Shown here piece by piece: positions 2,292 to 63,100 of a DNA stretch of 64,000 nt. Each line of letters begins with the position of its first letter. Within the stretch, counting starts at the first letter, position 1. Position numbers and translations under genes: made by a program. Source of the DNA: Geosiphon pyriformis uo1 (lineage: Eukaryota > Fungi > Glomeromycota). The notes beneath the pieces were generated by a model. It saw nothing but the letters and a program-made list of their open reading frames with translations, was not told the origin of the DNA and did not search any database. The stretch is taken from the NCBI GenBank assembly GCA_016748015.1, contig JAAOMT010000607.1, positions 806,001 to 870,000 on the forward strand, in the 5' to 3' direction.

Positions 2292-2348
2292 TACCAACAA
2301 CAATTCCACCACAACTTACCAACTTACCAACAAAATAACCAAACAAGA

Positions 2349-3716: not shown

Positions 3717-3877
3717 CCAAACTTGAATACTTAAATTTTACAATAATTCTCCATAAAAACACAAAGACAAAAATAGTAAATAATTACAAAACACCCAAAC
3801 CCAAAAACAAATAAAAACTCCATATTCAAAAAATAATTTTTCTTTATTCTCTCTTTTCATAATTAGTCAATTTTATC

Positions 3878-4615
3878 ATGATTATTCCTCGAAATATTCA
3901 ACAAATATCCCAAAAATTAATGGTAGCCTTGAAAACACTCCCTGACTTATCTATAACGATTAATGGAAGTCAAATTAAATACATTCAGAAAGAAACCACA
4001 GCCCCAGTAGCAAATCATTTGCAGAACTATCACCCCTATAAAAAAGAAACAAAAAGTCACTCTGAGAATAAATTACCAAGACTTTTGAAGCAGGCACTAG
4101 AAAAAAATCTGCTAATTGCCCCTATTGACATTCCACCAAATGCTACAATGCAACAAAAACTACTACTACTTCTTAATAAACAGAACAATGAACACACCTC
4201 TAGCTATAAATATTTTCAAATTGGAAAAACACTTTATGAACGAAAACTGGAACTTAAAGCAACAAATCTCACTCCTGAAGTTATACAAAAACAAATCTAC
4301 AATGAATTCAAAACAGCAGCTGGACCAACAAACACTCGCTACAAACTTAGAGCAGCTTTTAGACTCTATGATTTGTTTAATACTTGTGAAAATGTTCTAC
4401 AAAATCCAATACTGCAATCAATGAAAGTCCAATACATTGGCAAACTCACAGAACTGAAATTTCAACAATTTTCAGACCAGATTACTTCAATCATTTTAGA
4501 TCACTATCTCAATATTACAGATAGTGCTTGGATTTCGACAGAGCTCAGTCTTGAGGAGGAGATTATGTTACCAGTAGAATTTTGGCTATTAATTAGCATG
4601 AAATTACCCTTATAA
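3878..4615 (+). CDS. Element A ORF3, accessory protein of unknown function in the env position
   Basis: Open 245-aa ORF between IN and LTR; homologous to the decayed ORF at 11938-12732. Confidence 0.75.
   Translation: MIIPRNIQQISQKLMVALKTLPDLSITINGSQIKYIQKETTAPVANHLQNYHPYKKETKSHSENKLPRLLKQALEKNLLIAPIDIPPNATMQQKLLLLLNKQNNEHTSSYKYFQIGKTLYERKLELKATNLTPEVIQKQIYNEFKTAAGPTNTRYKLRAAFRLYDLFNTCENVLQNPILQSMKVQYIGKLTELKFQQFSDQITSIILDHYLNITDSAWISTELSLEEEIMLPVEFWLLISMKLPL
4553..4565 (+). other. Polypurine tract of element A
   Basis: GAGGAGGAGATTA directly before TGTTACC. Confidence 0.8.
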
Positions 4616-5539
4616 TTCCTATAATTCATTAGTATATTAATATCATTTCAAATTATCATTTATTATTTAATCAATTATCACATATCACAATTCAATTAAA
4701 ATAATTTAATTAGTATAACAGAAAGTAAGATGATCAAATTACACAATACCCTGAACTTTGTAACATTCAAAAATTTGCTGAAATTTACAGAAATTCACCA
4801 AAATTATGAATAGTTTACCCAAATTAATCAATAGTTCAGCAAAATAACTTGTAGTTCATCAAAATGTATCTTTAGTTTGCCGGAATTTGGACAAAGAGAA
4901 AAAAGTGCAAGTTCATAAACTAGTACTACAACAAGTTGTATAAAAAAAAAGCTTTTCTCTTCTGAAAAATGTATCTTACTTTAGATTTATTACTTAGAAC
5001 CATTTCTATACACACAAAAAGAAATAAAAATCAAATAATTCAAAAAAACCAAATTTTTTAATTATTACACTTGAAAAATCCCCAAAACCCAACTAATATT
5101 TTGAAATTGATTAGCTACCAATTTCAGTAAACTGTTAGTGACTTCAGGCCTGAATAGAAAACGTTTCTCTTGACAAAAATTCTATTTCTTTTACATTTCT
5201 TTTATTTTCTTTTATTTTTTTTACTATAATCACTAAGATAACCTACAGACAAGATTCCTGTAGAAGAGTTGACTTTTACAGCAAAGTAACTACACATTTT
5301 TAGTAAGCTTTCAGACAAGCAATTCCTAAGAAAGAGTTGACGTTTACTACAATGTAACTACATAAAGTAACTGACAAGGAATTGGCCATTCTACTTATAA
5401 GCCCAGCAGTTCAAATTATAGGAGATAATTTGAAGATAAATTCAGTTATTGGAGGTTCAACTACTCCCTGAAAACGAGAATTCACAGCAAATCAACATTA
5501 CCAACATTTAAGAAAAGAGACCAAAAACCTCTGGTAACA
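4566..5539 (+). repeat. 3' LTR of element A (LTR family A)
   Basis: 9-bp terminal inverted repeat TGTTACCAG...CTGGTAACA; paralog at 30163-31140. Confidence 0.92.
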
Positions 5540-5568
5540 CCAGTAACACCCCACCCATTAACTGGATC

Positions 5569-10539: not shown

Positions 10540-10549
10540 TCCCAGACCC

Positions 10550-11917: not shown

Positions 11918-11937
11918 ACAACAGGCAGCAAATTAAA

Positions 11938-12732
11938 TTGGAGAATTCAAATATATATAGCATCCGAAAAGCAGCAAGAAACAATAGAAATTTCAACATA
12001 GACCTTTCAAATCAAATTTTAAAATTATCTAAACAATTATTTAAGACAATTCAAAAATCGACATCTCAAATAGAAATAACAATTGATAAAAAAGAGATAT
12101 GGTACAAAGATAAGAGCAGGAAAGGGGAGGATGAGAGTTCAATTAGAACTAAACATTCTCTCCTCTACCCACCATCTGAAAGACAATGTTGGAGGAAAAA
12201 TTGCCTTTGGGTGGAAGGTGGAAAAGAAGAAGGCAAAGAATGAGAAAAAGGTTACAAAAAAAGATACTTGGTCCCTGAGCTCGAAAAAATAAAAGAAGCT
12301 TTAATTCATGGGACTGAACTCCCCAAAACAGAGAAATGAACACCTAACAATGCCCAGGAATAAAAAGAAAGACTTCCTCCAGCTTATTGGTTCTACAAAA
12401 TTGGAGAACAGCTTAACTTGAAAACACCATATGAAGACCTCAGCCAGAAAACGTTCAACAAAGAAGCAATACAACAAGTAGAAAAATTCATAGAGAAAAA
12501 CAATCTGACTCTACATTACAAAGCAGCATACTGATTATATACTGCCTTCCAACATTGCCCAAATGTACTACTGAATGGATCTATAAAAACCATAATGATT
12601 AACAACATAAGATGAATAACCAATCAACAGTTCAAAGACCTACAAAAGACAATACTCGAGGCAACAATCGAACATTACACGAATGAAGCCATGATAACAG
12701 ATACATACAATTTCGCAGGAGCTCAATTTTAA
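11938..12732 (+). pseudogene. Element B ORF3 (decayed homolog of 3878-4615)
   Basis: AYWFYKIGEQL...KAAY*LYTAFQHCPNVLLN aligns with SYKYFQIGKTL...RAAFRLYDLFNTCENVLQN. Confidence 0.72.
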
Positions 12733-12746
12733 AAAAATAGGGATAA

Positions 12747-13826
12747 TGTTACCCGAGTAGAAAAACCAATCCAAAGTTATAAAGAAACATGACCAAAATG
12801 TGACATAACACAGAATAATGCGCAATAATATTGGATAATGTATTATAACATAAGATAACATGTTATAATATAGAATAACACAGAATAGCACGTAATAACA
12901 TAGAATAATGTATTATAATGCAGGATAACACAGAATAACATGTAATAACATCAGATAATGTGTTATAATATAAGATAACTAGCAATAATATAGAAAAATA
13001 AAGCAATAACAGAAACAACAAAACAATAGTTAGCGATAGCGAAACAATTGAAAGCAATCCTGTAAAACCAAAAGAATATATAAAAGCAAGTAGTTGTAGA
13101 AGTGAGAAAAGACAGACAGATAGATATGAACCTCTAGACCAGAATTAAAATATCCATATCCCTTCATCCTTTATTATCTTCCCTATTTCATCTCCTGAAA
13201 TAAACCAATTATTAAAGAAATCAGAATCACAAATTCATGTTCTTAAACTTTGTAGAATTTACGTGAATTAACCCTTGTCTCATACCTCCATTCTAAAACA
13301 GATGCTCTTAGCATAACTGTCTTGAACCTATTAACAATTTGAACCAATTGCTCTTGATCACAGTGATTGACGATACTAATTTATCTTTTTCTCTCTTTTC
13401 TTTTCTTTTTCTTTTTCTTTCTTTTTCTGTCTTATTTTTGTAGAGCGGCAACATAGTAAAATCGACTGTTTGAGAATAGACTTCGTAATAGCCTGGTAAA
13501 AGAGAGAAGCTCCTTCTAAGTTTTTGAATATTAATATTATCTTGCTAGCTTACCAGAAAGGTAAAAAGACAATGCCAGACCCTAACAACTGCGCTTATTA
13601 GCTTGGAGAAGAAAGCTCACATTTACAAAAAACATTGCAATCGACAAAAGACAAACTTTGTGCCTTATAACCAAAAAACTCAATGAGTAAAATTCACATC
13701 CAGGAATAGCTCTTCAGAGACTGATAATCAAGACTAAGCCAACAGAATTACGTGAAAGATGCATCATCAATAATTGAGAGCACCAAACGTTACCATTTTT
13801 CATACTCACCAAGTTTACCTGTAACA
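12747..13826 (+). repeat. 3' LTR of element B (LTR family B)
   Basis: TGTTAC...GTAACA after PPT AAAAAAATAGGGATAA; TATA ~13076; related to 51695-52742 and 54226-55233. Confidence 0.92.
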
Positions 13827-23919: not shown

Positions 23920-24592
23920 TACGAATCTGGTTGTTCAAAAAGGGAATGGCGAGTCGCCTAACACCTTGTTTGTTGAGTTTTAAAAAAAAAGACGTGACAG
24001 TTATGTGATCCTTTGAGCAAAATAAAGAGAAAAAAGTTAATAATTTGGATTGAAATACATCAGTAAACTTTTTTTTACTATAAATATTTACCACAAGTTG
24101 TCAACTTGTGTAATGACCGATTTTTGGCCTTTGACTGTGAAGCCTCTTAAAGCTCGTATAATGACTTTTTCCTGGAGGATAAGATGTCAATATTTTCTAA
24201 TTCCTAAACTTTGAATCTAATCATGGAATGTCAATAGTTGCAACATGATATTTTGCTTATTAACTTAGTATTATATTATTATTTAATTATTTTTAATGTT
24301 ATCTTATTAAAATTTAATTTGTAATAATTTACAAATATATTAATATTTTTTTAACTAAAAAATTAGCAAACTAAAAGTTTAATAACATTATTCGAACAAA
24401 AAATTATTTACTTTAGCAATTACCAAAAAGACTAAAATATTTATACAAGCAAAAATTATAAAAAATTTCAGTAAATTCTTTATAAAATAATAAACAGGTT
24501 TACCGAGTATTTTAAAAAAGTGATTTTAAGTAAAACTAGTCTTTAAAAGGATTTTCTAGATAATCTTGCAAAATATTTAAAACCCTGGGTTA

Positions 24593-27056
24593 ATGCAAAT
24601 TTTGGGCAAGTCGTGTGAATATTCAAACGTTATGTCCTCTCACCTTAACGTTTCCACCCCTGTCGAAGCGAATAGCAAGTTAAAGCAACTCACCTTAGAA
24701 GAATTATTTGGAAATACCCCTTTATCTAATATCTCCAACTCTCCAAAGTCCCCGTCCTCAAGTCAAAGGCGTAAATGTGTCCAGTCATCTAACAATCGTT
24801 CGGCTGTCTCCTCACCGTCTAACACCCCACTTTGCGGAGGAATATCGCTCACCACTGGACTTCCCTGCAGACGTCTTGTCACTTCAGACAATTTTTGTTT
24901 TCATCATCGATCACAGAGGTTGGGACTCAATGGTAATCTCTTCGGAATGCCCACCACACCGAGAAATGGTATTTTGGATCTCTCGGAAACCGTTCAATTA
25001 ACTGAAGCGAGGGATCTCGTAGATATTGATGATGAAGCTTCAGTCAAAAGCGTAACTCGTGAGCAAAACAGTCCTATTCCCTCATTATTGCTCGATGAAA
25101 GTGACAATGAGTTCAAAGAGGTAGAGACTTTGGTGAATCAATTGAACGAAATATCGATCGCTAAAGTTGAAACGCTCTATGATGATAAATCCCAAAGACG
25201 TGACCGAGTTCATGATCGCGATATCAAAGCAACATCCAGCTCCACCTCAAAAACTGAAATGCAGTCGACTGATTCCTTAATTGTTCCAACTTTGCCCACA
25301 AAAATTGAACATAAACCATTAAAAATAAATATGACTCAATCATCTAAAAGAGGTTCCTCACTTGTGCCATCCAAGGAAAATTCAAATACTCCATCAGTTT
25401 CATCACCTATATTTTCAAAGACGTTCCCCTCGACTCCATCAGAGACTACTCATCAAAAAGCGAAAACACCAACACCTTTTAAAACTAATTTCACGGACAA
25501 TATGTTTAGAACACCGCCTACACCGACAACGAATGTAATGAACCAAGAGGTGTCACCTCACTCTCCACGACTTTTACCTGAGATCTATGATAATAAACAA
25601 CAGGAGATTGGTTGCTCAGACCCTAGTGGCCAATCATTTAAATCAGACAGTCAAAAGGAAAATGTTTTACTGAGTCCAAAAATAGGGAATGAGCATTTGA
25701 AATCACGAGAAACTTCCCGGCAACTCCTCCAATCCGAAAATTCCGAACTCCCAGATGGCGAATATAAGAGAGAGTCTAATTCAGTTCAGAGGAGCTCCGA
25801 GCATCCGGAAGAGGATAAATATTTCGAGATATGGCATGACTTTTCCGCTCCTTCTAATACATCCGAGTCGTCTTTGCCATCTGAAAGTGAACTTGAGGAA
25901 TCTTGGGTAACTCAATCCAAAAAAACAGAAATCGAATCCACTTCTTTGTCTAAAAGTTTTACCAATAAGAAATCAATTGGTGTCGAAGAAAGTCTTTCAA
26001 ACCCTAATGAATCCAGCCTACTCACAACCACATGTGCACGAGTTCAAATAGATTTTGAAAATCAAAAAATCTTTACGGCACCATCTGACTCATCTTCATT
26101 CAAAAAATCGCCAGGCTCTATTCGGTGTCAGGGTTGCAATAGCAAAACGGGGAATCAATGTGCGCGCTCAATTAAAATTACCAATGAAACCGCAAATTTG
26201 GTGGAATGGCATTGCTTTCAGCATCGAGTAGAAAATGCTAATTTGGAGTCTTCCTTAATCATGGAATCTTTAGCATTTGTTCCGGGACAATCGAAAATTG
26301 TATGGCTCAGATTTGAGGGTACTCCTTCCGTTTTTAAGTTGATTATTTTATTAACAAGATCTCAATTGGTGAAATTAAATTTATTATGGTTTTCGGGCAT
26401 GTGACCAGATTGGGTTAAAAAAAATTTAAAGCCAGAAACTAAAAAAATGTTGGTCGAAGAAATGAAAAAGCCTATATCGGATGGTGATGAACCTGGATTT
26501 ATTTACGCATATCAATTGGTTGACGGTAACGAGTGATTTTTTCTTTAAAAATTTCATCTTTGGAAAATTTCCTTATAATGTCTCTGTTTTATTCTCCCAA
26601 GGCCCTTCTGGGCATCATGATCCAAACTATAACTTATATAAGGTTGGAAGAGCCACTAATGTCCAGCGACGTTTGTACCAATGGCTTCGTCAATGTGGCT
26701 ATGAGCCAACAGTAATCGAATACTTTCCGAATGTAACACTGCCTAGTTCGTGTTCTCATCATGGATCTTTCACACTTAATGTTGAAGATGATCAAGATGA
26801 TAATGGCTTACAACCTGAATTGATAAATGCGTTTATAAATGGCCCAAAATGTAAGTATACTCATCGGGCCGAACGCTTGATACATATTGAGTTGGGTGAC
26901 AAATATCATGCAAACATGCCGAAATGTGAAGGTTGCGGTAACTATCATCGGGAATGGTTTAAATTACCAGCTTCCGATTTGGACGACTGGGACGAATTGA
27001 GGCGCGTGATAGTTCATTGGCTGACATACATAGAAAAAACATATGGAGTGGGGTAG
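24593..27056 (+). CDS. T5orf172/Mug113-type GIY-YIG domain protein; exons 24593 (or 24632)-26318, 26409-26525, 26602-27056
   Basis: PGFIYAY, YKVGRATNVQRRLYQW..QC, ERLIHIEL, C..CG..HREWF; in-frame introns. Confidence 0.87.
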
Positions 27057-43900: not shown

Positions 43901-46125
43901 AACCTTAAAATAAAATATTTTCTTTGAAAATTTTCTCAAATTAATGTTCTGTACATCAATAATTTTTTGTTAAAAAAATTTTTTAATTCTTGAAACTAAG
44001 GCTAAAAGTTATATCCAAAGCAGATTAATTGTTTATTAAAAAAATTTTTAAAAATAAAACTAGTTTATTTATTATTTTATATTAAACATAAAGATTGCTT
44101 TAAATGATTATAACACAAAATTAACAAAATATTATTATTTAACAGATTTTTTATTTAGTTAAAAGTGAGTTTACAAACAAATTATTGATAATATTAAAAC
44201 AAATTACATTTTGACTCATTTATCAATTCTTTTATTGTTTTTAATAAAATAATTTTTTCGAATTTTTCCAATTTTAAAAATAAAATCTATAAAATGATAG
44301 GTCTTATGCTTAACATTAGAGAATAGAATTAGTGTTAGCTTCTAAACTTTATTATGTATTAATGAATTTAAATTTAATTTCTTTTAAAACAAATGTTAAT
44401 TGTTAAAAATTCAAATTATTTTACAATATAATTTTTTATTTAATTTTTGATATTTCTAATTAATCAGGTATTAATTACATAAAATACACACAAAGTAGAT
44501 TTTATTAATTATTAAAACATTTGTTTATAATCTAAAAACTTATTTATTAGCTAATAAACTGTTTGTAAAAGCTTTTTAAACAATTTCTTAAATCTTGGAT
44601 TAAAAATATTAAAGTGTTTTTGTTAAAAAAAACACTGGAAATTTGAGTTTAAATGTGACTGTTATTGTTAATAGTAATATTGTCAAAAATTACTAAAATT
44701 AAAAGTAGGCTAATAAGTATTAAATTTCTGTTTTATAATAAAACTTTTATTATAATTATTAATATTTATGCTAAAGCTTTTGCTAAGAAAAAAATAATAC
44801 AAACTTAATTTTTTAATAAGATTATAACAAAAATGCTACATAAAAATACTTATATAATTATTAATAGTAATTTTAATAAAAATAAATATAATTATTATGT
44901 AAATATTGCTTTATTTAAAAATATAATTTGTTTAATATTCTGTTAAAAAAGCCTGAAATAAAAGATTAAACTTGACAAAATTCAAAAAGTATACAATAAT
45001 ATTATCCAAATAAAAAACATTTACAAAAATTTAAAAAAAAAGATATATAACAAAAATTACACAAAAAAAATATATAATTTAAAAATAGTAATAACAAATA
45101 ACATAAAAAAATAGTAAAAATAGCAAGCTTTTAAAAGTTATCTAATAAAATTAAAAATATGTATATATATAAATAGTTTTAGTTTAAGAAAAAAATATTT
45201 AATTTTTAATAGTAATTAAATTTGGTTTTATTACTATTTTTTCAAATTTAATAAAATTATTAATAAAATTTATATTTTTTGATTCGAAAATTTGAAATTA
45301 GTTAAAATAGTCTAAAATAATACAAAATAACAATTTAATAATTTAATTATTATAATAGTTTGATAAAAAAAAAAAAAATTTAAAAAAAAGATTTTATAAA
45401 AGATTATAATTTACTAAACAAAAAAAAACAATGTTAAATTCTATTAATTATAATAAAATAACATAAAATAAAACATATTACAAATAAAATTAAATATTTA
45501 ATTTAATAAAAAAAACTATTATTAATATTAAAATATAAAGGTTTTAATATTTTTAGAACTTAAAAATAAAATAATTAACAAAAATATTAAAAAACTTTTA
45601 AATTTAATTAAATTTTTAAAAATTAATAATATATAAAATAAACATTAAAAGTTATATTATTCTAATAAAATAAATTTTAAATTTTAAATTTTTTGTTTTT
45701 AAATAAAAAATTTTTTGGAATTTTAATTAAAAATAATATTAAATATAAAATAATATATATATTAATTAATTTTAAGTTTAATATTATTAGAAAATAAATT
45801 ATTATAAATTATTATAAATTATTAAAAATACAATATTAAATATATTAATATGATTATATAATTAAAATTTAATAATATTTTTTTAAGTAAAACTATTATT
45901 TATATAAAGTTTTATTATTATTATTATTATTATTAAACATTTAACAAGTGCAGCCCTAAAGTTTTTTAATATTATTAAAAAAATAATTTGAATTTAATGT
46001 AATAATTATTATAATTAGTTGTTTTTAATTTAGTTAATATAATAATAAAATTTTTAATAAAATTTTTTTTCAATTTTATAAACTAAAAAAAAGTGTTCTT
46101 CTTTGGACCGTTCTGTTGACTCTAA

Positions 46126-47086
46126 TGTTACAGATGATTATTTGGAGTCTCAAATCAAATAACAAATCCATAACTTGGTACTCAATATCTTGATAATACT
46201 GGTAATACTAGTATGTTGGTTGTATTTGAAGGTTTTAAAGTTGAGTTCTTTGTATAATAAACAGAGATTTGATGACAATATGGTTGGTGAGTTGTTTTTC
46301 TAATTTTTGTTTTCAGCATGGTGGCCAGTTTATTCTGGCAGTCATGCCTTTCTGGTAAGCTATCCGTTAATATATATATTCTTACTCTTATCTCTGGGTC
46401 TTTTATCAGGCTATCTATAACATCAATAATTCAGCACTTTAATCTTTAATCAATTAGTACACAACAATAAGATCAAAACAAGAAAAAAAATAAAGACAAT
46501 AAAAAAAAAGATAATGAAATAAATGAAAGCAATTACAAGTTAGTATCCCGTTAATAGCCATGATCAAGAACTATTGTTTCAGTGTTTTTAAGTATCAATT
46601 ACTATCAACATAAAGTGTTGATAGTAGAGAGTGGATTGAAATAGTGAATAATTATTTATTAAATATTTGTGAATAGAAGGTTGTTTAGATTAAATCTAAA
46701 CTGAGAGGTCTCTAACTAAAAGATTCTTTTTTTTTGTAATTTTAATAATTATGATTTTGCAAGTCTAATTGATTCTATAAATCTAATTGACTTTGCAAAT
46801 TAATTGACTCTGAGTCCCATTGACTCATTTTCTAACTTTTGATACTACTGCTATATATACATATTTGAGATTCCTTAATTCCTCAATTCTTTATGTCAGG
46901 AATTCTGCAATTCCTTTGAGAGGAATCCTGGAATTTTGGAATCCTGCAATTTCTCCTATAAGAATTCTGCAATTTCTGGAATCCTGTGATTCCTCTGAAA
47001 GGAATCCTGGAATTCCATATTTATTACATCTATCTATGATTGGCTAATTTATATGCTAATATACTTTTTATATTTTATGAGTAACA
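46126..47086 (-). repeat. LTR family C (5' LTR with a short internal stub, or solo LTR)
   Basis: TGTTAC...GTAACA; similar to the reverse complement of 57105-57980. Confidence 0.88.
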
Positions 47087-48260
47087 CCAACTTTTCCAAA
47101 AAGTGCTGGATTGAGAAAAAACACATCCATTCTACTATCACTTCTAAGAATCTGTCAGTTGTTTGGGTCAAGATTAAGAGTTATTCTGGAATTGTTACTA
47201 ATAAGCGTGCAGACTTTTTTACAGATGCTGCTACCAGTTCGAAGTTTGTGCTGCCTGTTGGTGTGATGCATCACTTTCTTGCTGTCGAAAGCAGGCCTGT
47301 TTCTGGTAATGCTTGTCACTTCATAAGATGTCTTTTCAATGCTGTTAATTTTGTTGGGTAGGAATTTAGGTGTACAGAATATGCTGTGGATCTTAGTCTT
47401 AATATGCTGAACATTCAAAGTTTGGCATCCAGATGGTAGTATTTGCTCAGACTTTTTTAGTTTTGCCTTTGTGGTGTTCAGGTCTTATTTTATAAAGGCT
47501 CTGCACCATTGGCTGCCTACTGTAAAAAGGAAAAAGTTGTACAAATCGAGTTATTCTAGTATTTTGTACATCTATTGCAGTTTGACTGATAATTCTGATC
47601 ATGTGTTTTTATGTAAAAAAAACTCTGATGCCAAGAAGAAGTTGATCTTTAATATGGTTAGTGCTTGAATTGCCATGTTGAACATTGGCTATGCTAGATG
47701 TGCTGTGGTTTAATCCTTGCATATGGCTAAATTGTCTGATTACTTATATATGGCTTTAGCCAAAAGTTTTGTGGTAAAAAATTGGGTGGATAACACTATG
47801 AATATGTTGAATCTTGGATCTAATAGGAGATTATTGGTCATCAATATGATCCATAACTTCACTGAAAGCCACAGATCTACTATCTGGGTGCCAAATGTCA
47901 GGCTGAAGGTGTATTATAAAAAGCATGATCTTTTGCTGAGGGATAGATCTGTGGCACCAGCCATTTCTGGATTGGCCTCTTAGTGGTCTTGTAAGGAGAT
48001 TTGTGATTTTGGTATCAGATTAGATATTCATATGTGTTTTGGCTTGCATTCTGGATTGGCAAGTATGCATTTTGGTTTTCCGCATAACTTCTCAGTAGTT
48101 GGTAGTTTAGGTGTGTAGTGCTGTCTTGACTGGTCCAAGTGGCTGGTTATGTATAGAAAAAGCATGAGCCACACTTAATTTAGGATTCTGTTTGATCTTA
48201 TGTATTTAAGTAGTAGTTAGACTGCATTTATTAATAAAAAAATAATAATAATAATAATAA
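47087..48260 (+). mobile_element. LINE 3' fragment (RNase H end, zinc domain, 3' UTR, A/(AAT)n tail)
   Basis: KKCWIE..WVKIKSYSG..NKRAD; YFIKALHHWLP; conserved UTR. Confidence 0.88.
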
Positions 48261-50640: not shown

Positions 50641-51694
50641 GTGGTTTGATCTGGAAGATAGCTATGTGTAATGTTCGAAGCATTAATGTGTCTGCTAAAC
50701 AGGAAGATGTTGTGTGCTGGCACAAAGACTCAGGGAATATTATTTTAGTGATTATGGAAACAAAGCTAAGGCCTAACATTATGCATTGGATTATGAACAG
50801 ATTCAATGGTGTGCAGATTTTTACTTCTGGTTTGGATATAAGTTTTTTTGATACTGGGGTGGCTATTATTATGGACAATTTCTTAGTGTGTCATGTTTTT
50901 AAGGTGGAGGAGATTTCTAGTTGTGTTGTTTCAGTTCATTTCCTCTTCAAAGACAAGACTTCAGTTTTGATTGTCAGTTTGTATGCTGGTGCCTCTTCTG
51001 GTGTTAGGTTCAGTCTGGTCTCTGAGGTCAATTTTTTTATAGTCTGGATGGTTAATTCTAGTACTTTTGTTGTCTTGGGTGGTGATTTTAATAAGAACAG
51101 GTTTAGAAAGAGTACAAGTTTTGGGTTTTGTTCAAATTTGAGCTTGGTCAATTTCTTTGGTGGCCATTTTTTGGCTAGTGCACCTACATAGAGCAATTTA
51201 AAGGGTGTTAATAGAGTTATTAACTATATTTTTGTTAGTGAAAGCCTCATTTTAGCAGTGGCTGGTCACAAAGTTGGTTCTGTTTCTGAGTTTTTTAATA
51301 CTAATCACAATGCTGTTTCTATTTTTGTAGACTTGAGAGATCTTCTGGATGCTCAATTAAACAATATATGTAAGTAGGCTAATAAAGATCATTGAAAGTT
51401 CAAATTGAAAGGAGTGAATGATAGCAGGTGGGAATGTTTTAGAAAGTGTTTTTTAGAAAAGTTTTTGGCAAGGGCAAAAGAGTTTCTTGATGCAGAACAT
51501 GGTAGTAACTTGGATGCAATGTGGAAGATTCTTAGAGAGGTGGTAGTTGATTCTGCTGATGATATTTTTTCTCAGCTCTAGTTTAATGAGTTTAATTGTG
51601 CCAGAAATAAGCTATCTTCAAAATTTTTCAGATTGGAACTGCTGTTGTCTAAAATTGTCAAGAAATTAGGTTTAGGGCTGGGTTCAACAGCCAA

Positions 51695-52742
51695 TGTTAT
51701 GGATAAACTTGGTGGATAATGGAACTGGTAATGTTTGGTGCTCTCAATTATTGGGGATGCATCTTCTGTGTAATTCTGTTGGTTTAGTCTTGGTTATCAG
51801 TCTCTGAAGGTCTATTCCTGGATGTGAATTTACCTGTTGAGTTCTTTGGTTATAAGGCATAGAGTTTGTTTTTTGTTGATTGCAATGTTTTTTATAAATA
51901 TAAGCTTTTTTTTTGAGCTAATAAGCACAGTCATTAGGGTCTAGCATTGTCTTTTCATTCTTCTGATAAGCTATTAAGATAATGTTAATATCCAAAACCT
52001 AGGAGGAGCCTTCTTCTTTTATCAGGCTATCACGAAGTCTATTCTCAGACAGTCAATTTTTCTATGTTGCCACTTCATAAGAGAAAAAANNNNNNNNNNN
52101 NNNNNNNNNAAAAAAAAAAAAAAAAAAAAAAAAAAAGAAAATAAAAGAAAATAAAAGAAAAAAAAAAAAATAAAAAAAATAAAAATAAGAAATAAGTGTT
52201 CTGTCAATAGCCGTGATCAAGAGCTATTGTGCCAGCAGGTTAAGTAGTGGATAATAACATGGATTTAAAGAATTAAAGGGATATTTTATTGATATAATTC
52301 TATTTCGGTTGATAGCAACTATCTTTAAAAAGAAGAGTATTTAATAATTATGACCTGTGAGTCTAATTGATTCTGAAAGTTTAATTGACTTCTGAAAGTC
52401 TAATTTTCTTTTTGGATGTCTTTCTAACTTCTATAGCTACTCATTTTATACATTCTTTTTGTTCTACAAGATTACTTCTAATTGTTCTGTTATTGCTAAC
52501 TATTGCTTTGCTATTTTTGTAATTGCTTCGTTTTTCTATGTTATTACTAGTTATCCTATGTTATAATATGTTATCTGGTGTTATTACATGTTATTCTGTG
52601 TTATCTTACATTATAATGCATTATCCTGCATTATTTTAAGTTATAATGTGTTATTCAACGTTATTGTATACTATTCTGTATTATGTCATATTTTGGTCAC
52701 ATTTCTTTATAACTTTGGATCAGTTTTTCTACTTGGGTAATA
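51695..52742 (-). repeat. 3' LTR of element D (N gap 52090-52109)
   Basis: Direct repeat of 54226-55233. Confidence 0.9.
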
Positions 52743-53479
52743 TTATCCCTCTTTTTTAGAATTGAGTTCCTGCAAAATCTTCTAAATTTCTTTCTTGTCT
52801 TAATGTTGTTGCCGTAATTTTTATTACTATTATTAAATCTATTTTGGTACGTGAATAGTGTTTTTTTTTTTTTTTTAAACTATAAGGGTTTGTCCAAGAT
52901 ATCTAATTTCAAATTCTGCATTCGTATTATACACACATTCAGCCATAATGCCCTCATTATTATCACTGAATTGAGTTAATTTCTGCTCTATTGTAAGGTC
53001 TAAAAGCATAATATATTGTTCAATGTTTGAAACAGAGTTTGAATCGTTGTTGTTATTATTGGTGGAGTTTGAATTGTTGTTGTTATCATCAGTGGAGTTT
53101 GAATCAGAATTAAGTTTTGATTCTGATTCTTGCTGATTGGCTTGTCTTCCTTGGAGTTCAAATATATGACGTGTGGAAGTGGATTGTAACTTAGGGCCAT
53201 CAGGTGAGTTTAATGATTTGTTAATTGATTTTGGTACTATTGATTCTCAAATTCTTTTTTCTTCTCTAAGTCTTTTTTGTATTGACACTTTCCTAATGCT
53301 GACTTTTGGCATAAAAAAAGGCAGTCTTCACACAGATAAGTATGAATCTGGGTAGTTTTTTTTCTGGAATTTTTCCAATGGGTCTTTAAATAATCAGAGT
53401 TTTGAATTTCTAAAAGTTTGATGGGTTTTATCTGAAGTAAGCTTTCTTGTACAATAGCAGATTTGGACTTATTGAGTTT

Positions 53480-54100
53480 TGAATGTTTGAGTTTTGAATG
53501 ATCGGGTTGGAGTTTTAACTTTAATGAGTTTTATTGAAGGTAAGTTTTTTTCTACACTAGTGGGGTTAGAATTTATCAGGTTTTGAACTATTGGATCTTA
53601 AAGAATTGAAGTTTTAATGAGTTTTATTGAAGATAAGTTTCTTTATATGAGTTTATCAAAGATAAGTTTCAAATGTTCAGAGTTTTAACAATCAGGTCTT
53701 GAATAATCGGAGTTTTAATTTTAACAATTTTTTTTTTAATGAATTTTATCAAAGGTAAGTTACAAATGTTCAGGGTTTTAATAATCAGATTTTGAATAAT
53801 CAGAGTTTTAATTTGACGAGTTTTAATGAGTTTATCAACAGTAGTTTTCGAATGTTCAAGATTTTAATAATCGGGTCTTGAATAATTGGAGTTTTAATTT
53901 AATGAGTTTTTAATGAATTTATCAAAGATAAGTTTTGAATGTTCAGGGTTTTAATGATCGGATTTTAAATAATCAGAGTTTTTTAATTTTAACAATTTTT
54001 TTTTAATGAATTTATCAAAGGTAAGTTGCAAATGTTTGGGGTTTTAATGATTGGGTTTTAAATAATTGGAGTTTTAATTTAATGAGTTTTTCAAAGGAAA
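53480..54100 (-). repeat. ~87-93 bp tandem repeat (at least 5 copies) in element D
   Basis: AATGTTCAGGGTTTTAA-like anchors at ~53672, 53764, 53851, 53938, 54031. Confidence 0.85.
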
Positions 54101-54206
54101 TGTTAAAATAAGAATTTCGCGAATCTTAAGTGATTTTTCCATTGTTTTCTCTTGGTTTTTCACTTTTGTGAATTTCTGGGGTGCTCTGTCTCTGTGGATT
54201 TTATAA

Positions 54207-54225
54207 CCTTACAGAGAACACCAAA
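54207..54225 (-). other. Primer-binding site of element D, tRNA-like (possibly elongator tRNA-Met)
   Basis: TGGTG(C/T)TCTCTGT(G/A)AGG 2 nt after the LTR; tRNA identity is inferred. Confidence 0.7.
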
Positions 54226-55233
54226 TGTTATGGGTAAACTTGATGGGTAATAGAACTGGTAACATTTGGTGCTCTCAATTATTGGGAATGCATCTTCCAC
54301 ATAATTTTGTTGGCTTAGTCTTGGTTATCAGTTTTTGAAGGTCTATTCTTGGATGTGAATTTATCCATTGAGTTCTTTGGTTATAAGACACAGAGTTTGT
54401 TTTTTGTCAATTACAATGTTTTCTGTAAATGTAAGCTTTCTTCTCTGAGCTAATGAGCACAGTTGTTAGGGTCTGGCATTGTCTTTTTGCCCTTCTAGTA
54501 AGCTATCAAGATAATGTTAATATCCAAAACCTAGGGGGAGCCTTCCTTTTTTACCAGGTTATCATGAAGTCTATTCCCAGACAGTTGATTTTCTTATGTT
54601 GCCACTCCACAAGAGAAAAAACTAAAAAAAATAAAAGAAAATAAAAAAAAATAAAAAAAAATAAAAAAAATAAAAATAAGAAATAAGTGTTCTGTCAATA
54701 GCCATGATCAAGAGCTATTGTGCCAACAGATTAAATAATGGATAATAACATGGATTTGAAGAATTAAAGAGATATTTTATTGATATAATTTCATTTCAGT
54801 TGATAGCAACTATCTTTGAAAGGAGGAGTATTTAATAATTATGACTTGCAAGTCTAATTAACTCTGAGAGTTTAATTAACTTCTGAAAGTCTAATTTTCT
54901 CTCTGGATGTCTTTCTAACTTCTACAGCTACTTATTTTATACATTCTTTTTGTTCTACAGGATTACTTCTGATTGTTCTGTTATTGCTAACTATTGCTTT
55001 GCTATTTCTGTAATTGCTTTGTTTTTCTATGTTATTACTAGTTATCCTATGTTATAATATGTTATCTGGTGTTATTACATGTTATTCTGTGTTATCCTAT
55101 GTTATAACACATTATCTTGAGTTATTCTAAGTTATAACATGTTATCCAACATTATTGTGCACTATTCTGTATTATGTCATGTTTTGGTCACGTTTTTTCA
55201 TAACTTTGGATCAGTTTTTCTACATGGGTAACA
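54226..55233 (-). repeat. 5' LTR of element D
   Basis: TGTTAC start on the minus strand; followed by PBS. Confidence 0.92.
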
Positions 55234-57104
55234 CTGACAATCTAGTTAGCACTTGGTTGACTATTGATAAAGCAGAAGCTTTCAAAGTTTGCTTCATAAT
55301 CAGTAAAAAAATTAGGGTTGATATTATTCTGCATCACATTTCAAGTGTCAAGAAAAGTTACCATAAATCTAAATATTATGAATTCAAAATGGCCAAAAAT
55401 GACTTCATCAAGAAGGCTATTAAAAGATGCATAGAAAATTTTTGTTCAAATAAGGGTAGGATAATTAAAAGCATTCTGGATTGACCAATTAGAAAGGTGG
55501 TTTTTGATCATTTGATTGTTGATAATAACTTTATCTTTGAGTTGCAGGTGATTAAGTTTTCAATTGACACAATAATGGAAAGTTAGACAAGAAAACATCT
55601 GGCTCTGGGTGTTTTTCTTAATCATTGGTGTGAACAATATGTTCCTTTGGATTATGTTGATAATAATGCATTCTTAAGGGTTATGAATGATATCAATATG
55701 TGTGAGCTTATGTATATTGTCAAAAATCTGTTTGATGGAAAGACTGCTGGACTTTTTGGCATCCCTAATGAGCTATAGAAACATGGTGATGTTTTAGTTC
55801 TTAATGGTTTTTTATCTATTTACAATGGTTGTTTGAGATATGAGAGAGTTTTTGTGCAGTAAAAAAGATTCTAGGTGTCCATGATTTTTAAATCTTATGA
55901 TTGGAAAGACACTTTTACCAATACCCATCCAATCACATTAATTAAAACTGTTTGAAAGATTTTATCTAAGGTTTTTTCAGACAGGATCTCTCTGGCTTGT
56001 AACAAATTTAATGTTTTACATGGTAACAATTTTTCAGTTCTAAAGAGCACTTCTACACAAAGCCTGATCTTTGTCATTGGCTCAATTATTAAGGATGCTC
56101 TGGAGAAAAACAGAGAGGTGTAACTTATTCTTCAGAACATACACAAAACCTATAATTTCATTAAGTGGTCTTATTTACTTAACAGCTTGGTTAAAATCAA
56201 AATGTGTTCTCACTTCATAAACTTTTTCATAGTATACACAATAATAAGATCAATCAGGTGATGACAAATTTTGGCTTAATTGATGGTTATGTTGTTCACA
56301 ATGGTCTTGATTAAGGGAAGGTGTTTTCACCTTTACTATGGAGAATATTTTATGACCCACTTTTTTGTAAAGTCAAGAAGCATGAACAGTTGTTTGGATA
56401 CAGTATGTGTTCAAAGTTTTTTGCAAGAACTGGCAAGCCTGATCTGAGAGGCGGCTTAACTTTTTTTTTTGCTGCTGGTGCCTTTGTTGATAACATGATC
56501 TGGGTTGGCAACTGTTTGACAACTATACAGAACATTTTGAATATAGCCAGTAAGTTTTTTGCTATCAATAACATTTCAATAAACACAGAAAAAACAGTTG
56601 CCATACCTATAAATCAGGGTGTCTGGGATGCTGTCTTGTCTATTAATGGATCTAGAATTTCAGTTGCAAAGAAAAGCAAGTCTCACAGATATTTAGAAAT
56701 CTTTTTGTCAACTAATGGCTTGTTCAAGCCTAGCTTAACCAAGGTACATATTGATGTCAAGTTCTTTTTAAATATGGTTTTGAGAAAAGCCATCACCGAG
56801 AAACAATTCTTGTACTTAGTTTCAGCTGTTTTACAATCTATTATTGGTTACAGACTGCAGTTTAGCTTTGTCTTTAAAAGTGCATGTGAAAAGTGAGACA
56901 AATTGTTAAGAAAGGAGCTTAAGTTCAAAGTTAATCTGCCTAAGGACTTTTTTAATGAGGTGTTATATCATCCTGAGTTTTATGGACTAAAGACATTCGA
57001 GCAGATGCTAACAGAAAATTTAATGGCTAACTTGGTTAATTTTGCCAATGCTGGTGAGATTCTTGGAAGATTTTTTGATCATAAAGTGATGGATTTACAG
57101 ATGG

Positions 57105-57980
57105 TGTTACTCATAGAAATATAGGAAATATATTAGTATGATTATTAGCCAATCAGAAGTAGGCATAGTAAATGTGGAATTCCAGAATTCCTCTCAGAAA
57201 TTGCAGGATTCCAGGAATTTCAGAATTTCCTGATGAGGAATTGCAAGATTCCAGAATTCCAGGATTCCTCTCAAAGGAATTGCAGGATTCCAGGAATTCC
57301 AGGATTCCCATTATGAAGAATCAAGGAATTGGGGAATCTCAAATATGTATATATAGTAGTAGTGGTAAAAACAAAAAAGACAGAATCGATACTACAGAAT
57401 CCTTAGCCTAGAAACAAAATTATCAAATAAATATTTATTTCATATCTCAATCCACTGTCCACTATCAACACTTCATGTTGATAGTAATTAATACTTAACC
57501 ATACTGGAACAATAGCTCTTGATTATGGCTATTGACAAAATACTAACATACCAAATTGCCTTGGCTTATTTTCCCTATTTTCTTTATTTTTATTTTTTTT
57601 ATTTTATTTTATTTTATTTTATTTTGATTTTGTTGTTGTATACTAATTGATTAAAAGATTAAGCACTGAGTTATTGACATCAAGGATAGCCTGGTAAAAA
57701 ACCCAGAAATAAGGATAGGATTTTATATATTATCGGATAGCTTACTAGAAGGGCACAACTGCCAGACTAAATCTGGCCACCATGCTGAGAAAGAAATTGG
57801 GAAAACTCTTGGAAAGATACATCTACTATTGACACTATTGAATCTCTGTCCATTATACAAAGGACTCCAACAAAACTTTCAGATACAACACTTGCAGAAC
57901 CTTATCCACAGAAATAGTTTTTGAGCACCAAGTTATGGGTTTGTTATTTAATTCAACAGCAGAAATAATCACCTGTAACA
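57105..57980 (+). repeat. Solo LTR family C with perfect 4-bp TSD ATGG
   Basis: ATGG|TGTTAC...GTAACA|ATGG; removal restores the LINE frame MDLQMAS. Confidence 0.95.
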
Positions 57981-60128
57981 ATGGCTAGTTGAATGTTCTA
58001 GCATCCTTTACATTTTCCAGTCACATTACCTATTAGTCTTATGGATTGTTTTCTGACTGGAGCTATTTGTGCTCTCACTTTGTACAATCTTTTCTTGGAT
58101 GGTGCAATTCCTAATGTGTTTCAGGCCAGGTTAGGCATATTCATTTTGAACATACTGGGCATGAATGTGTACATGAATGTAGTCAAGTCTCTTAGAAGAT
58201 ATGGTTTTGTTTTTGCTAATCAAATTCTGAATTGTTATGATGAGTGCTTCATTTGGGAGACATTTCACAAATGGAAAAGACTAGACTCCAGAGGTCTGAT
58301 TCCTGTCTGGTTCATGTCCCTGTCTAATTTTGTTAGAAATAGTGGTTTGAGTGGTAACATGGCTCTGGCATCTCATTACACTTGTGCTGACCTGTCTTGT
58401 AATGTTGGTTTTGTTTCTGAGCACATACTTATCTCTGGATGTAGTTCCATCAAAGTTTACATGAATGGTTCTGTCAGAGGTATGGGGACCATTGGTGTCT
58501 GTGGTGGTGCTGCTGCATACTTTCCTGTAGTTGACGTAAGTATTGGTGTGAGGGTTCATGGCTTGTTGTCTTTGACATTGGTGGAGTTACAAGCTATTGT
58601 TTTAGCTTTGGAGTGTGTGTCTGCTTCTAGTGCTGTTACTTTGTTTATGGATAGTCAAATGTTACTGGATATGTGCAAGTTTGATGTGAATATGCCTGGT
58701 TTTAACTTTCGCAAAAAATGTTGGTTGGAGAAAAAACATATTCATCATTCAATTTCAAAAAAAAAATTTTCAATTACATGAAAGAAGATCAAAAGACATT
58801 CAGGTGTTGTTGGGAATAAGCAAGCTGATTTTTTTGCTAATGCAGCAGTCACTTCTAAGTCTGTGCTTTTTCTTAATGTGCTATGTCACTTTTTTAATAT
58901 GGAAAACTGGTCTATCTTAGGAAATGTGCATTACTTCATCAGAAGTTTGTTCAATGTTATTAATTTTGTCAATTGGGAATTCAAGTATGCTTTTAGCATT
59001 ATGGACAAGAGTGTTATCTGTACAATTGATATGAGCAGGTCTTTTAGTGTTTGGCATTCAAATGGCAGGATCCAATCAGGTTACACCAGTTTATCTTTAG
59101 CTTCTCTGCAGTTATATCTTATGAAGACTCTTCACTGTTGTTTGCCAGTTGTTGTGAGAAAGAGATTGTATAATTCCAAATATCCCAGCATATTGTGCAT
59201 TAGATGTGATTTGGTTGAGGATTTGAATTACTTGTTTTTGTGTAAGCAAAACAGAGGTGCCAGAAAAGCTTTGTTGTTGGCCACTCAAGTGGAATGGTGT
59301 AAAATGGTTGGTTGTTCAGTTATGGGGGATTCAGTTGTCAAATCTCTTTGCAAGACTGGATCTACTGGTGGCTTATATATAATGTTGGCCAAGGAGTTTG
59401 TTTTAAAAAGCTGGGTGGCTGATATTACCCAACATTTTGGCTTTAAGTCTGGTGGTGATCTGGTTATTAGGTTGGTTCACAGTATTGCTGAGTATTACAG
59501 ATCTGACATTTGATTGCCTACTGCTAAATTAAGATTCTTTTATGAAAAACACAATTTATTGCCATGTGATGGCTCTGCTGTTTCTTTAGTTGCTGGTTTG
59601 TTATCTATTAGGTCTGTTGGGGTCATCCATGGTTTTGGTATTAAATTGGGCATTCATGTGTGCTTTGGTTTGCATTCTTGTCTGTCCAATTTGGACTTTG
59701 GTTTCTTAAGTCATGTCCCTGTAGTAGATTCTGTAGATGTATAGTGCTCTTTGATTGGACTGAGTGTCTGGTCACATGTAGAAAGAACATGAGCCATACT
59801 TAATTTAGAATCCTGTTTGATTTTATGTATTTAGATAGTAGTTGGGCTGCACTTATAAAAAACTTTAATAATAAAAAAATTATTAAAAATATTTTAAAAA
59901 TAACAAAAAATTATAATTAACTTTATAGAATATAAAAAAACTTATAATTTATTAAATAATTATATTTATTTTATAATTTAAAAAAAATAAAAATATATAA
60001 AAAGTTTATTTGGTTTTTTGGTTATGTTTATATCTTATAAATAAAAAAAATTATAATAGATTTTAAACTTATTAGTAAATATTATGTACATAATAAATTG
60101 AATTAAAGTTTTTATTTTATTTTATTTT

Positions 60129-63100
60129 ATTTTTTTTTATTCATTTAATGAGTTAGGTCCAAACACTACTTAGAACTATACATCAATAAAATAATCTAAA
60201 CTAAGCATGAATCATGCATTTTCTACATGTGACCAGCCACTCAAACCAGTCAGAACAACACTATACACTTATATTAACAGAAACCGGATTACCAATACCT
60301 GAAAAAAATGAACAAAACTTGCAAAAGCCAAAACAAACACCAAAAGCTTCAGCAATACCAAGTAATTTAATCACACCAGCCAAGAACCCCGAAACCAAAC
60401 CAAAGACCAAGATGGGGATTAAGCCATCTACAGGGATCAGACCATTCTTTTTCATGAATGCACAATACTTAGCATAAACCAACCAAATGTTATTTCTGAA
60501 GACAAGACAAATAGATTGCACAAAATCAGAAATTCTAACACCAGCAACTTTGGGATCATAGAAGACGGAAATAGTTTCTCGAAGCCAACCATTAAAAACA
60601 AAACCCTTGTAAAGAGCTGAAGAAACTGGGAAATTCAAAGCACAAGTTAACAGCAATTGCAATACATCTGAAGAAGGAAGGAAGAGACCAGAAAGCACCC
60701 TCCAAGAAGACATACAAGATTCCAAGACCTGATGACAAGCTAAATCATCAACCACACAAGAAAACACATGGTCAGACACTTTAACCTTACCACAATACAG
60801 ACACAAAATACTAGGGTAACATTTGTTGTAAATGCACTTCCAAACAGTTATGGAAAGCCAACAGTGCAAAGTCTTCATGAAGTAAGTTTGAGTATCAGCA
60901 GTCAGTCTGCTGGTGAAACCAGTGGCCATATGTAAATCAGAGTGCCAAACTCTGGAAGAACAAAGCCAATTGACATTTGAACACAAATCATCATCTAGAA
61001 ATCTAGAACCAGACCTGACCTCCCAACGCACTTGACAAACAGCATAAAAAACATCACAAACAAAATGCTTAGAATTACCAGATACAACACTACCATCTGC
61101 CAATAAAAAAAGTTCATCAACACAAGAAGGAAGATATCAACCAAAGAGAGACACAGTGTCAGCAAGGCTATTGGTATAATCATTCCCCAAAATACCAGAG
61201 TGGCCCTTAATCTTGCATTATTTAATTCTCAAATTCTTACTGCAAATAACATTCCTGATATGCTGACACTTGACCCAACACTGATTGTGAAAATCAAGAT
61301 ACACTAGGTTAAACTCCGACCTACAAGCATCCAAAGCCACCTGACTATCCGAAAACAGATGGACAGAACGAGCCACAGACATGTATTCTAGAGCCAATGC
61401 AATAGTCTGCAGCTCCACTAAAGTGGATGACATTAAGCCCTAAACACTAATACCCAACCCCAAATTAATATTCTCAAAAAAGACAGCAGCTCCAGCTCTA
61501 CAACCAATCATGCCCAAATTTTTTACTAAACTATCCATATACACAGACAAGCTATCAATGTCAATCCAAGAAAGACAATCACAGACAGATATAAAATTAT
61601 CAGAACCATGAATGTCCAAAGGGCCAATACCAGCCAATGCCAAAAGAGAAAAATGAGGAGCCACAAAAAAAGCAACAGAAATATTGAACCAATTGGAAAC
61701 TGGACCATGAGAGTCTAGCCTCTTCCACTTTTTAAAGGTGTGCCAGCTAAAAACACTACCAAAATAATCATGAAGCTAGTCCATGAAAACAATGCCATAC
61801 TGCTGAAGAGAAAGTAAAATCTTATCAGACATAGGTACTCCACCATGAAACTGGAAAGAGCTAACCAAAAAGCTGCCCAAAGGTAACTTGCAGTCGAAAA
61901 GAATGTGAACCATACCAGCTAAGAAATTATTTGAAACATTGACATGAATACGAGCAGGGAAGACCAACAGATGGATAGGTTGCCAACACTGAACTTATAA
62001 GTCATAAGATCTGTGACCAAATAAGCACCCCAAAATCCCACCAGAGTTTGCAAAACTAATAAGCGAGGCAACTTTACCCTCAGATTGACACTGCGAAAAA
62101 GACTTTAAACCATAAAAGAAGGAGTAGTGAATTGTATCACTAGAAAAGTCCAATAGAAGACCAGATTTTAGCTTCAAGCCCTTGCGAATCAAAGCATCTT
62201 ATTTGTCATATACACCAACAGGAAAAAAGCTAAACTGTGTCCTATTGCTTACAATAAGGTAGAGAACTGCCGAAACCAAATACAAAAACTGTTTATCTGA
62301 GACAGCTTTCTTCAACACCAAATTAGTAAAAAAACGAACATCCAAATGTGCTCTTGCCAAACTAGATTTGGAAAGACTCTTTATTGAAAAAAAAATACCC
62401 AAGTATCTATAAGACTCTCCCTTTTTGGTGATCGAAATAGGCAGATTACTAATAGTGAGAGAAGAATTGCTGACTCTGCTGTTAATAGGAATCACTACTG
62501 TTTTGTCATTGTTAATTGAGATATTATTGATCCAAAAAAATTCACTGACAATGTTGAGAATATGTTAAGTAGCACTTTGACTATTACCAACCCAAATCGT
62601 ATCATCAACAAAGGTGCCAGCAACAAAAAAGGAAGAACATCCAGCACAAGACTCAGCACGACTATTCTTGGAAATAAAATGAAAATTCAGCTTATATCCA
62701 TATACACTCTTTTGGCACTTGACCTCACACAACAATGGGTCATAAAATATTTGCCACAAAAGAAGGGAGAAAACTTTTCCTTGATCCAGGCCATCATGTA
62801 CATGATAATTATTTGTCAAACCAAAATCAGTCATAACCTGGTTGGTACAATTATTGTGAATGTTGCCAAAAAAACAAATAAATCTGCTACACATCTTAAT
62901 TCTAACCAAACTATTTTTGAGATGTTTCTAGCCAACCAAATTATATGCTTTCCGCATATTCTGCAGAACCAGCCAGAGTTCTTGGTTCTTTTCCAAAGCA
63001 TCCTCAACCACTAAACCAATTGCAAAAATAGGAGACTAAGTTGTCGTACCCTTTAAAACTGAGAAGTTGTCCCCATGAAGGATATCAAAAGCACTATATG

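What the first reader, a model, noticed from the sequence alone, without database searches (positions are those of the whole stretch)
54181..54276. U5 contains a tRNA-3'-end mimic that pairs with the LTR end and PBS
Seen: 54259-54276 and 54214-54231 form an 18-bp inverted repeat (16/18, both mismatches transitions, 27-nt loop). In element sense the U5 arm is GAGAGCACCA-AATGTTAC, complementary to GTAACA-TTTGGTGCTCTC. The same arm is in LTR B (13776-13793), and GAGCACCAAGTTA is in family C (57923-57935). A second PBS complement lies just downstream (CACAGAGACAGAGCAC, 54181-54196), so two alternative folds are possible. Known: Tf1/sushi elements self-prime from their own RNA, and retroviruses have U5-IR stems. 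Inference: a conformational gate on tRNA priming, or an internal self-priming route through cleavage after ..CACCA.
Basis: partly seen in the sequence, partly recalled or inferred. Interest (0 to 1): 0.7.

Follow-up and report, generated by a model that had tools for sequence, protein, structure and literature searches.

The report
Retrotransposon hairpin masks tRNA primer site
A decayed jumping gene in a fungal genome carries, near the end of its terminal repeat, a short copy of a tRNA's tail that is predicted to fold over its own primer site, but that site still matches methionine tRNA over 17 bases, so the hairpin likely controls when the tRNA can bind rather than replacing it.

Summary
The 18-bp inverted repeat is real (16/18, 27-nt loop). 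It joins the U5 end of a Ty3/Gypsy LTR to the LTR end and primer-binding site (PBS); the closest gag relatives are all Geosiphon pyriformis. The PBS is a true tRNA site: family contigs restore the window copy's three mismatches, giving 17 of 17 bases complementary to elongator-type tRNA-Met(CAT) genes, seven bases beyond the arm. The arm recurs in related family C, whose last 120 nt no longer align, which suggests selection. It is absent from family D, which has the same PBS start, and from 20 of 20 fungal-type relatives with tRNA-like PBSs, so covariation across families was not shown. The arm lies about 600 nt downstream of the predicted start of transcription; a cut after CACCA would separate the template from R, which argues against self-priming. 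Best reading: tRNA-primed element with an unusually long U5-PBS hairpin gating annealing, as in retroviruses. The scan noted self-complementary PBS hairpins in other genomes before, described there as lacking a tRNA site. No RNA data.

The parts
54226..55233 (-). 5' LTR of non-autonomous element A (TGTTAC...TAACA, about 1008 nt)
   Evidence: 86% identical to 51686-52740; ends and flanks
54935..54941 (-). TATA-like motif (predicted U3 promoter), 718 nt upstream of the PBS
   Evidence: same position in the 3' LTR (291) and LTR B (331); function inferred
54776..54781 (-). only AATAAA of this LTR (predicted poly(A) signal, end of R), 558 nt upstream of the PBS
   Evidence: at LTR position 451-453 in all three A/B LTRs; function inferred
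54259..54276 (-). U5 arm: 10 nt like a tRNA 3' end, 2-nt spacer, then the complement of the LTR end
54206..54223 (-). primer-binding site, 2 nt after the LTR end; complement of the tRNA-Met(CAT) 3' end
54180..54196 (-). second, bulged complement of PBS 2-14 in the leader
   Evidence: P = 0.012; duplex -16.2 kcal/mol
53642..54091 (.). five copies of a 93-bp tandem repeat in the leader of element A
52741..52754 (-). polypurine tract
   Evidence: same motif before LTR B at 12733-12746
51695..52740 (-). 3' LTR of element A, with the arm at 51745-51728
12747..13826 (+). LTR B: 3' LTR of a decayed gag-PR-dUTPase-RT-RH-IN element (5540-13826), the likely autonomous partner family; arm at 13776-13793
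57105..57980 (+). family-C solo LTR with a 4-bp target duplication; arm at 57923-57930 followed by a long stem closing on the LTR end
46126..47086 (-). second family-C solo LTR; arm at 46183-46176; its stem has one G-C to A-U pair change against the first copy
4566..5539 (+). family-D 3' LTR (control): no PBS-complementary arm although the family has the same PBS start

Best explanation
This Ty3/Gypsy LTR family likely primes reverse transcription with the host's elongator methionine tRNA, and the U5 arm is predicted to fold over the first ten bases of the primer-binding site, likely keeping it closed until the Gag nucleocapsid anneals the tRNA. Shown: the inverted repeat, its copies in families A/B and C, and the 17-nt tRNA-Met complement. 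Predicted by folding: the hairpin covers PBS 1-10, the bases that the tRNA's free CCA end would bind first, and opening the PBS costs about 20 kcal/mol against about 31 gained by a perfect 18-nt duplex. Inferred from retroviral biology: chaperone-driven exchange of arm for tRNA, after which a short stem on the LTR end (5-6 bp in A/B, 9+7 bp in C) remains at the initiation site like a U5-IR stem.
For: PBS: window copy differs from tRNA-Met at positions 6, 9 and 14 of the first 17; at exactly these sites contigs of run X1 carry the tRNA-matching letter in 86%, 52% and 50% of depth (61, 42 and 45 contigs). 17 of 17 viral-contig loci with the predicted tRNA end are tRNA-Met(CAT) genes (5 distinct). 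20 fungal-type relatives carry tRNA-like PBSs, 9 of them the same 16-mer behind different LTR ends, and the window's integrases sit among them. Selection on the arm: families A and C align at -300 to -120 (z 12.2 and 5.8) but not in the last 120 nt (z -1.3 and 0.3), yet both C copies keep the 8-mer (8/8, P = 0.005; 7/8, P = 0.02, the change giving a G-U pair), and both fold a stem on the LTR end with one two-sided pair change. The partner Gag has a CCHC knuckle. NC-dependent exposure of the MLV U5-PBS segment: PMC11181671, passages.
Against: The gate is dispensable: family D, the most deeply covered of the two families laid, has the same PBS start without an arm. Relatives show no general PBS masking (combined Z 0.24) and only a non-significant trend for LTR-end stems (Z 1.42). 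No covariation of arm and PBS could be shown, because every family with an arm seems to use the same PBS, and family C's own PBS was not seen. The one two-sided change in C is a pair of common transitions. The host's tRNA gene was not seen; the match is to tRNA genes in viral contigs, found with a pattern that I designed to include T-loop letters, and position 18 differs. Run X1 may be the sample that the window came from, its depths are not copy numbers, and only 40 of 102 variant rows were shown. No RNA evidence.
Confidence: 0.55

Rival explanations
1. Neutral relic: the arm equals the junction of tRNA 3' end and first cDNA bases, was copied once into U5 by a template switch during reverse transcription, and spread with the family without a function; priming is by tRNA.
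For: The arm is letter for letter the primer/cDNA junction. Family D and 20 relatives do without it. A and C LTRs share ancestry, so one origin suffices.
Against: The 8-mer and the stem persist in C while the rest of the last 120 nt has lost alignment; none of the 40 best-supported variant rows falls in 54267-54276 although neighbours on both sides vary (62 rows not shown).
Confidence: 0.2
2. Shield: the upstream arm and the downstream complement together hide the PBS from host 3' tRNA fragments loaded on Argonaute, while Gag can still open it for the tRNA.
For: The two complements together can cover PBS 1-13 and 16-19 in one predicted fold. 3' tRNA fragments target the PBS, and mutating the PBS costs replication (PMC7472051, passages). 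Rhizophagus makes small RNAs at transposons (10.1101/2021.03.30.436303, passages).
Against: The strong arm covers PBS 1-10, whereas a fragment's seed would pair at about PBS 11-17 (my inference from tRNA geometry). No small-RNA data for this host.
Confidence: 0.1
3. Self-priming, alone or beside tRNA priming: the RNA is cut after CACCA and the arm primes minus-strand synthesis.
For: The element meets the computational criterion for a self-primer (10 or more LTR bases complementary to sequence 0-5 nt after the LTR; PMC6317226, passage). At PBS 9 about half of the contig depth has the arm-matching T and half the tRNA-matching C.
Against: PBS matches tRNA-Met for 7 nt beyond the arm. The arm is about 670 nt downstream of the TATA-like motif and 500 nt downstream of the only AATAAA, so it is not predicted to be the transcript's 5' end as in Tf1 (PMC7175516, passage); a cut there would leave about 43 nt of template without R and block strand transfer (inference). 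The cut would fall inside a continuous helix. PBS 14, outside the arm, varies as much as PBS 9, and the loose-end consensus of family D, which has no arm, also shows T at 9 (low agreement).
Confidence: 0.08
4. The repeat acts on DNA: it folds in strong-stop cDNA or at the cDNA end and aids second strand transfer or integrase end processing.
For: The arm includes the complement of the LTR's terminal six bases, and plus-strand strong-stop DNA would contain both arm and PBS (sequence; standard reverse-transcription scheme).
Against: The changes seen in natural copies (C2 arm, A5 PBS 6) keep G-U pairs, which suits RNA better; masking the PBS in DNA would hinder transfer.
Confidence: 0.07

Closest known systems
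Retroviral U5-PBS and U5-IR structures (MLV U5-PBS segment, Rous sarcoma virus U5-IR stem, HIV-1 PBS segment)
   Same: tRNA-complementary PBS reaching into the T arm, with U5 sequence pairing near or over it and nucleocapsid needed to expose it (PMC11181671 passages; PMC3592414 passage; RSV U5-IR seen only as a reference title). An HIV-1 hairpin that buries the first PBS bases is recalled and was not found in the passages read.
   Different: Fungal Ty3/Gypsy retrotransposon; 8-10 PBS bases plus the LTR end in one near-continuous helix; a second complement downstream; present in two of three LTR families of the window.
Tf1/Tf2/Tj1 and the Tf1/sushi and Tcn1 self-priming chromoviruses
   Same: LTR sequence complementary to 10 or more bases just after the 5' LTR (PMC6317226, PMC4600332 passages); Tf1 also needs a U5-IR-like stem (reference title only).
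   Different: There the PBS is not tRNA-complementary and the primer is the first 11 nt of the RNA. Here the PBS matches tRNA-Met, the arm is at the far end of predicted U5, no chromodomain was found and target duplications look 4 bp long against 5 bp for Tcn1.
Ty3/Gypsy elements of arbuscular-mycorrhizal-type fungi (Rhizophagus and metagenome relatives)
   Same: Integrase 44-64% identical, shared tree, TG...CA LTRs, tRNA-like PBS a few bases after the LTR.
   Different: None of 20 junctions has a long PBS-complementary arm.

Membership tests
Ty3/Gypsy LTR retrotransposon (Metaviridae) | Paired TG...CA LTRs, PBS, polypurine tract, target duplication | tested here: met
   the 4-bp duplication of element A differs by two transitions, that of C1 is exact
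Ty3/Gypsy LTR retrotransposon (Metaviridae) | Domain order gag-PR-RT-RH-IN in the autonomous partner | tested here: met
   element ending in LTR B; element A itself has lost these domains
tRNA-primed LTR elements | PBS complementary to 12 or more bases of a tRNA 3' end | tested here: met
   17 of 17 with family-contig letters, 14 of 17 in the window copy, against tRNA-Met(CAT) genes from viral contigs
tRNA-primed LTR elements | The matching tRNA is encoded by the host | not testable with these tools
   no genome held; no tRNA gene in the window
tRNA-primed LTR elements | tRNA covalently linked to strong-stop cDNA | not testable with these tools
   needs particles or in-vitro assay
Tf1/sushi self-priming group | LTR complement of 10 or more bases to sequence right after the 5' LTR | tested here: met
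   criterion from PMC6317226
Tf1/sushi self-priming group | PBS not complementary to a tRNA | tested here: not met
Tf1/sushi self-priming group | The complement is the 5' end of the transcript | tested here: inconclusive
   motif positions put the start about 600 nt upstream; no RNA holder listed to map it
Tf1/sushi self-priming group | Chromovirus placement; chromodomain in most members | tested here: inconclusive
   no chromodomain in either integrase tail, only a weak SH3_Tf2-1 hit; no Tf1 reference was in the tree
Retroviral-type U5-PBS gate | PBS masked in the free RNA and opened by nucleocapsid | tested here: inconclusive
   folding prediction only
Retroviral-type U5-PBS gate | Structure kept by covariation across families with different primers | tested here: not met
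   no arm in family D or in 20 of 20 fungal-type relatives

The most novel reading that the evidence does not exclude
The A/C lineage is an intermediate between tRNA priming and self-priming: a tRNA-tail copy captured in U5 serves as an alternative primer beside tRNA-Met, and the half-and-half T/C state of PBS 9 records which primer each copy used (arm writes T, tRNA writes C).
Probability: 0.08. Interest if true: 0.75.

Novelty: new variant of a known kind. Interest (0 to 1): 0.33.

Why it matters
It shows an LTR element with both signatures that annotation pipelines treat as alternatives, a full tRNA PBS and a 10-base LTR self-complement, so an LTR complement alone should not be read as self-priming. 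If the gate is real, it extends retrovirus-like masking of the PBS to a fungal Gypsy lineage and gives a natural with/without comparison in one genome (families A/C against D, same PBS start). If the dual-primer case held, it would show how self-priming could arise from tRNA priming. The copies are decayed and the host is hard to work with, which limits impact.

Tried and rejected
No genome is held for the window, so host tRNAs and genome-wide copies could not be read. No RNA holder listed. A hairpin-core pattern in viral contigs gave 13 loci, none with stem extension or an integrase match: chance. RT and integrase scans of viral contigs found no relatives. The genome-contig scan gave mostly bacterial transposases; 11 of 80 loci (L094-L104) were examined and 5 junctions used. 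Runs X2 and X3 laid 2 and 0 contigs. The global alignment of U5 ends did not put the A and C arms in register, so conservation was tested by segment scores and shuffles. My idea that family D has a different, covarying arm and PBS was rejected. General PBS masking upstream (Z 0.24) or downstream (Z 0.16) among relatives was rejected. Literature: 'U5-PBS hairpin' with three other terms gave 0 papers; searches listed no paper on a tRNA-primed fungal Gypsy with such an arm, judged from listings; most subscription papers are not in the library, and the per-element REXdb table did not appear among the 5 supplement files searched.

Full report
Setting. The window is 30.6% G+C and CpG-poor and is packed with decayed Gypsy and LINE-like elements. 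All 28 gag hits are Geosiphon pyriformis proteins, up to 80% identical over the whole query; integrase hits are Rhizophagus and metagenome proteins. The host is therefore likely Geosiphon or a close relative. The finding lies at the 5' LTR/PBS junction of element A on the minus strand: 5' LTR 55233-54226, two bases, PBS from 54223, a 1.5-kb interior with a 93-bp tandem array and no Pfam domain in the part scanned, polypurine tract, 3' LTR 52740-51695, inserted in a LINE-like sequence. LTR B (12747-13826) is the 3' LTR of a decayed gag-PR-dUTPase-RT-RH-IN element and is 80-84% identical to the A LTRs in their 3' parts. Families C (two solo LTRs) and D (a 3' LTR and a solo LTR) are also present.

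Observation. Confirmed in every coordinate and beyond chance. The arm pairs PBS 1-10 with probability 0.9-1.0; forcing the PBS open raises the ensemble energy from -32.4 to -12.3 kcal/mol. The downstream complement is real but weaker.

Is the PBS a tRNA site? The window copy reads TGGTGTTCTCTGTAAGGT. Contigs of run X1 laid on the junction (1178 laid; 40 of 102 variant rows shown) carry C at PBS 6 (86% of depth), C at 9 (52%) and G at 14 (50%). X1 may be the window's own sample and depth is not a copy count. A pattern for the predicted tRNA end found 17 loci in viral contigs; ARAGORN calls all 17 tRNA-Met(CAT), 5 distinct genes, all starting with G (elongator type by my own knowledge). Against them the window PBS mismatches only at 6, 9 and 14 in the first 17 bases, the three sites that family contigs restore; position 18 differs. 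The pattern allowed A or G opposite PBS 9 and all hits had G. The host's own tRNA was not seen.

Relatives. From 91 loci scanned (80, 11), a junction pattern gave candidates; I kept 23, added L090 by eye, and dropped 14 that lay in coding or no LTR context. Twenty are fungal-type (label inferred from the tree with Rhizophagus proteins) and four animal-type. All have tRNA-like PBSs; nine share one 16-mer behind different LTR ends. The tRNA names used as tree labels for these are recalled, not tested. A long arm was found in none of the 20 (lowest P 0.065); one animal-type locus, L103, scored P = 0.01 on a G-U-rich match to PBS 5-18. With short loops allowed, only L039 reached P = 0.04 and the combined Z was 0.24; stems on the LTR end gave Z 1.42. 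The 20 are not independent, since several are close kin.

Families in the same genome. C shares the -300 to -120 segment with A but not the last 120 nt, yet keeps the 8-mer arm in both copies and folds a 9+7 bp stem on the LTR end, with one G-C/A-U exchange between copies. C's PBS was not seen. D's LTR end is followed, in the loose-end consensus of 32 contigs (agreement 0.48, mixed with random flanks), by TTTGGTGCTCT, the same spacer and PBS start as A; D has no arm (best match 5 of 8, P = 0.99), and in 72% of depth even its short complement to the LTR end is weakened (5501 C>A). So the arm is a kept trait of the A/C lineage, not a requirement of this primer or clade, and covariation with a different primer was not observed.

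Mechanism. Most likely the element is primed by tRNA-Met and the hairpin masks the bases that the tRNA's CCA end binds first, until Gag's nucleocapsid (CCHC knuckle in the partner gag) exchanges arm for tRNA; a perfect 18-nt duplex gains about 31 kcal/mol, without counting tRNA unfolding. This step is inferred from retroviruses (PMC11181671, passages). Self-priming is unlikely: a TATA-like motif and the LTR's only AATAAA lie 718 and 558 nt upstream of the PBS, at matching positions in all three A/B LTRs, so the arm is predicted at the end of a long U5. In Tf1 the primer is the first 11 nt of the RNA (PMC7175516, passage). A cut after CACCA here would leave about 43 nt of template with no R. 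These motifs are predictions in A+T-rich DNA. The one hint that keeps dual priming open is the even T/C split at PBS 9, where T fits the arm and C fits the tRNA; ordinary decay (PBS 14 varies equally) or two host tRNA versions explain it as well.

Papers seen. Passages: PMC6317226 (also one supplement search), PMC4600332, PMC11181671, PMC3601003, PMC3185550 (reference list hits only), PMC7175516, PMC1865047, PMC7472051, PMC3592414, PMC5767303, 10.1101/2021.03.30.436303 (its supplements not seen). The primary Tf1 and RSV papers were seen only as reference titles. An HIV-1 hairpin that buries the start of the PBS is recalled. Earlier scan notes list self-complementary PBS hairpins in at least 7 genomes (8 of 11 shown), described as lacking a tRNA site; they were not used as support.

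Verdict. Real feature, new variant of a known kind: a tRNA-primed fungal Gypsy lineage with an unusually long U5-PBS hairpin. Interest 0.33; the dual-primer reading has probability 0.08 and would rate 0.75.

Noticed in passing
window 102-600 and 8320-8690: Both Gypsy elements carry a dUTPase domain between protease and reverse transcriptase (Pfam E 2e-19 and 4e-16).
   Followed up: partly
window 2281-3371: Integrase of element 1 begins after a stop codon as a separate frame; many relatives show the same split. Earlier notes on this genome describe it.
   Followed up: no
window 3863-4615 and about 11950-12730: An extra frame of no Pfam family lies between integrase and polypurine tract; similar extra frames occur in relatives.
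   Followed up: no
window 52761-53420 (-): Element A keeps a short remnant resembling the segment at the start of the dUTPase region of the autonomous elements; no Pfam hit.
   Followed up: partly
window 46844-47092 and 57099-57363: Family-C LTRs hold short G+C-richer repeats in U3 with an internal inverted repeat near 46910-47005.
   Followed up: no
L060:6733: PBS resembling the tRNA-Met type sits inside a well-supported integrase clade whose other members share a different PBS: a likely primer switch.
   Followed up: no
L039:2640-2670 and L066:4870-4900: Short-loop hairpin in which a CCA just inside the LTR end pairs with the TGG of the PBS; L039 P = 0.04, L066 P = 0.20.
   Followed up: partly
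L058:5050-5095: PBS pairs with downstream leader sequence (P = 0.007), like the second complement of element A.
   Followed up: partly
L094-L104: Eukaryotic Gypsy elements inside prokaryote genome bins, likely contamination.
   Followed up: no
window 20882-21709, 23284-23934, 26466-27056: Host-type frames with RNase III, FYRN/INO80F and T5orf172 domains.
   Followed up: no
window 59738-60267 and 45484-46079: A+T-rich stretches that match their own reverse complement at 66-68%, possibly foldback elements.
   Followed up: no
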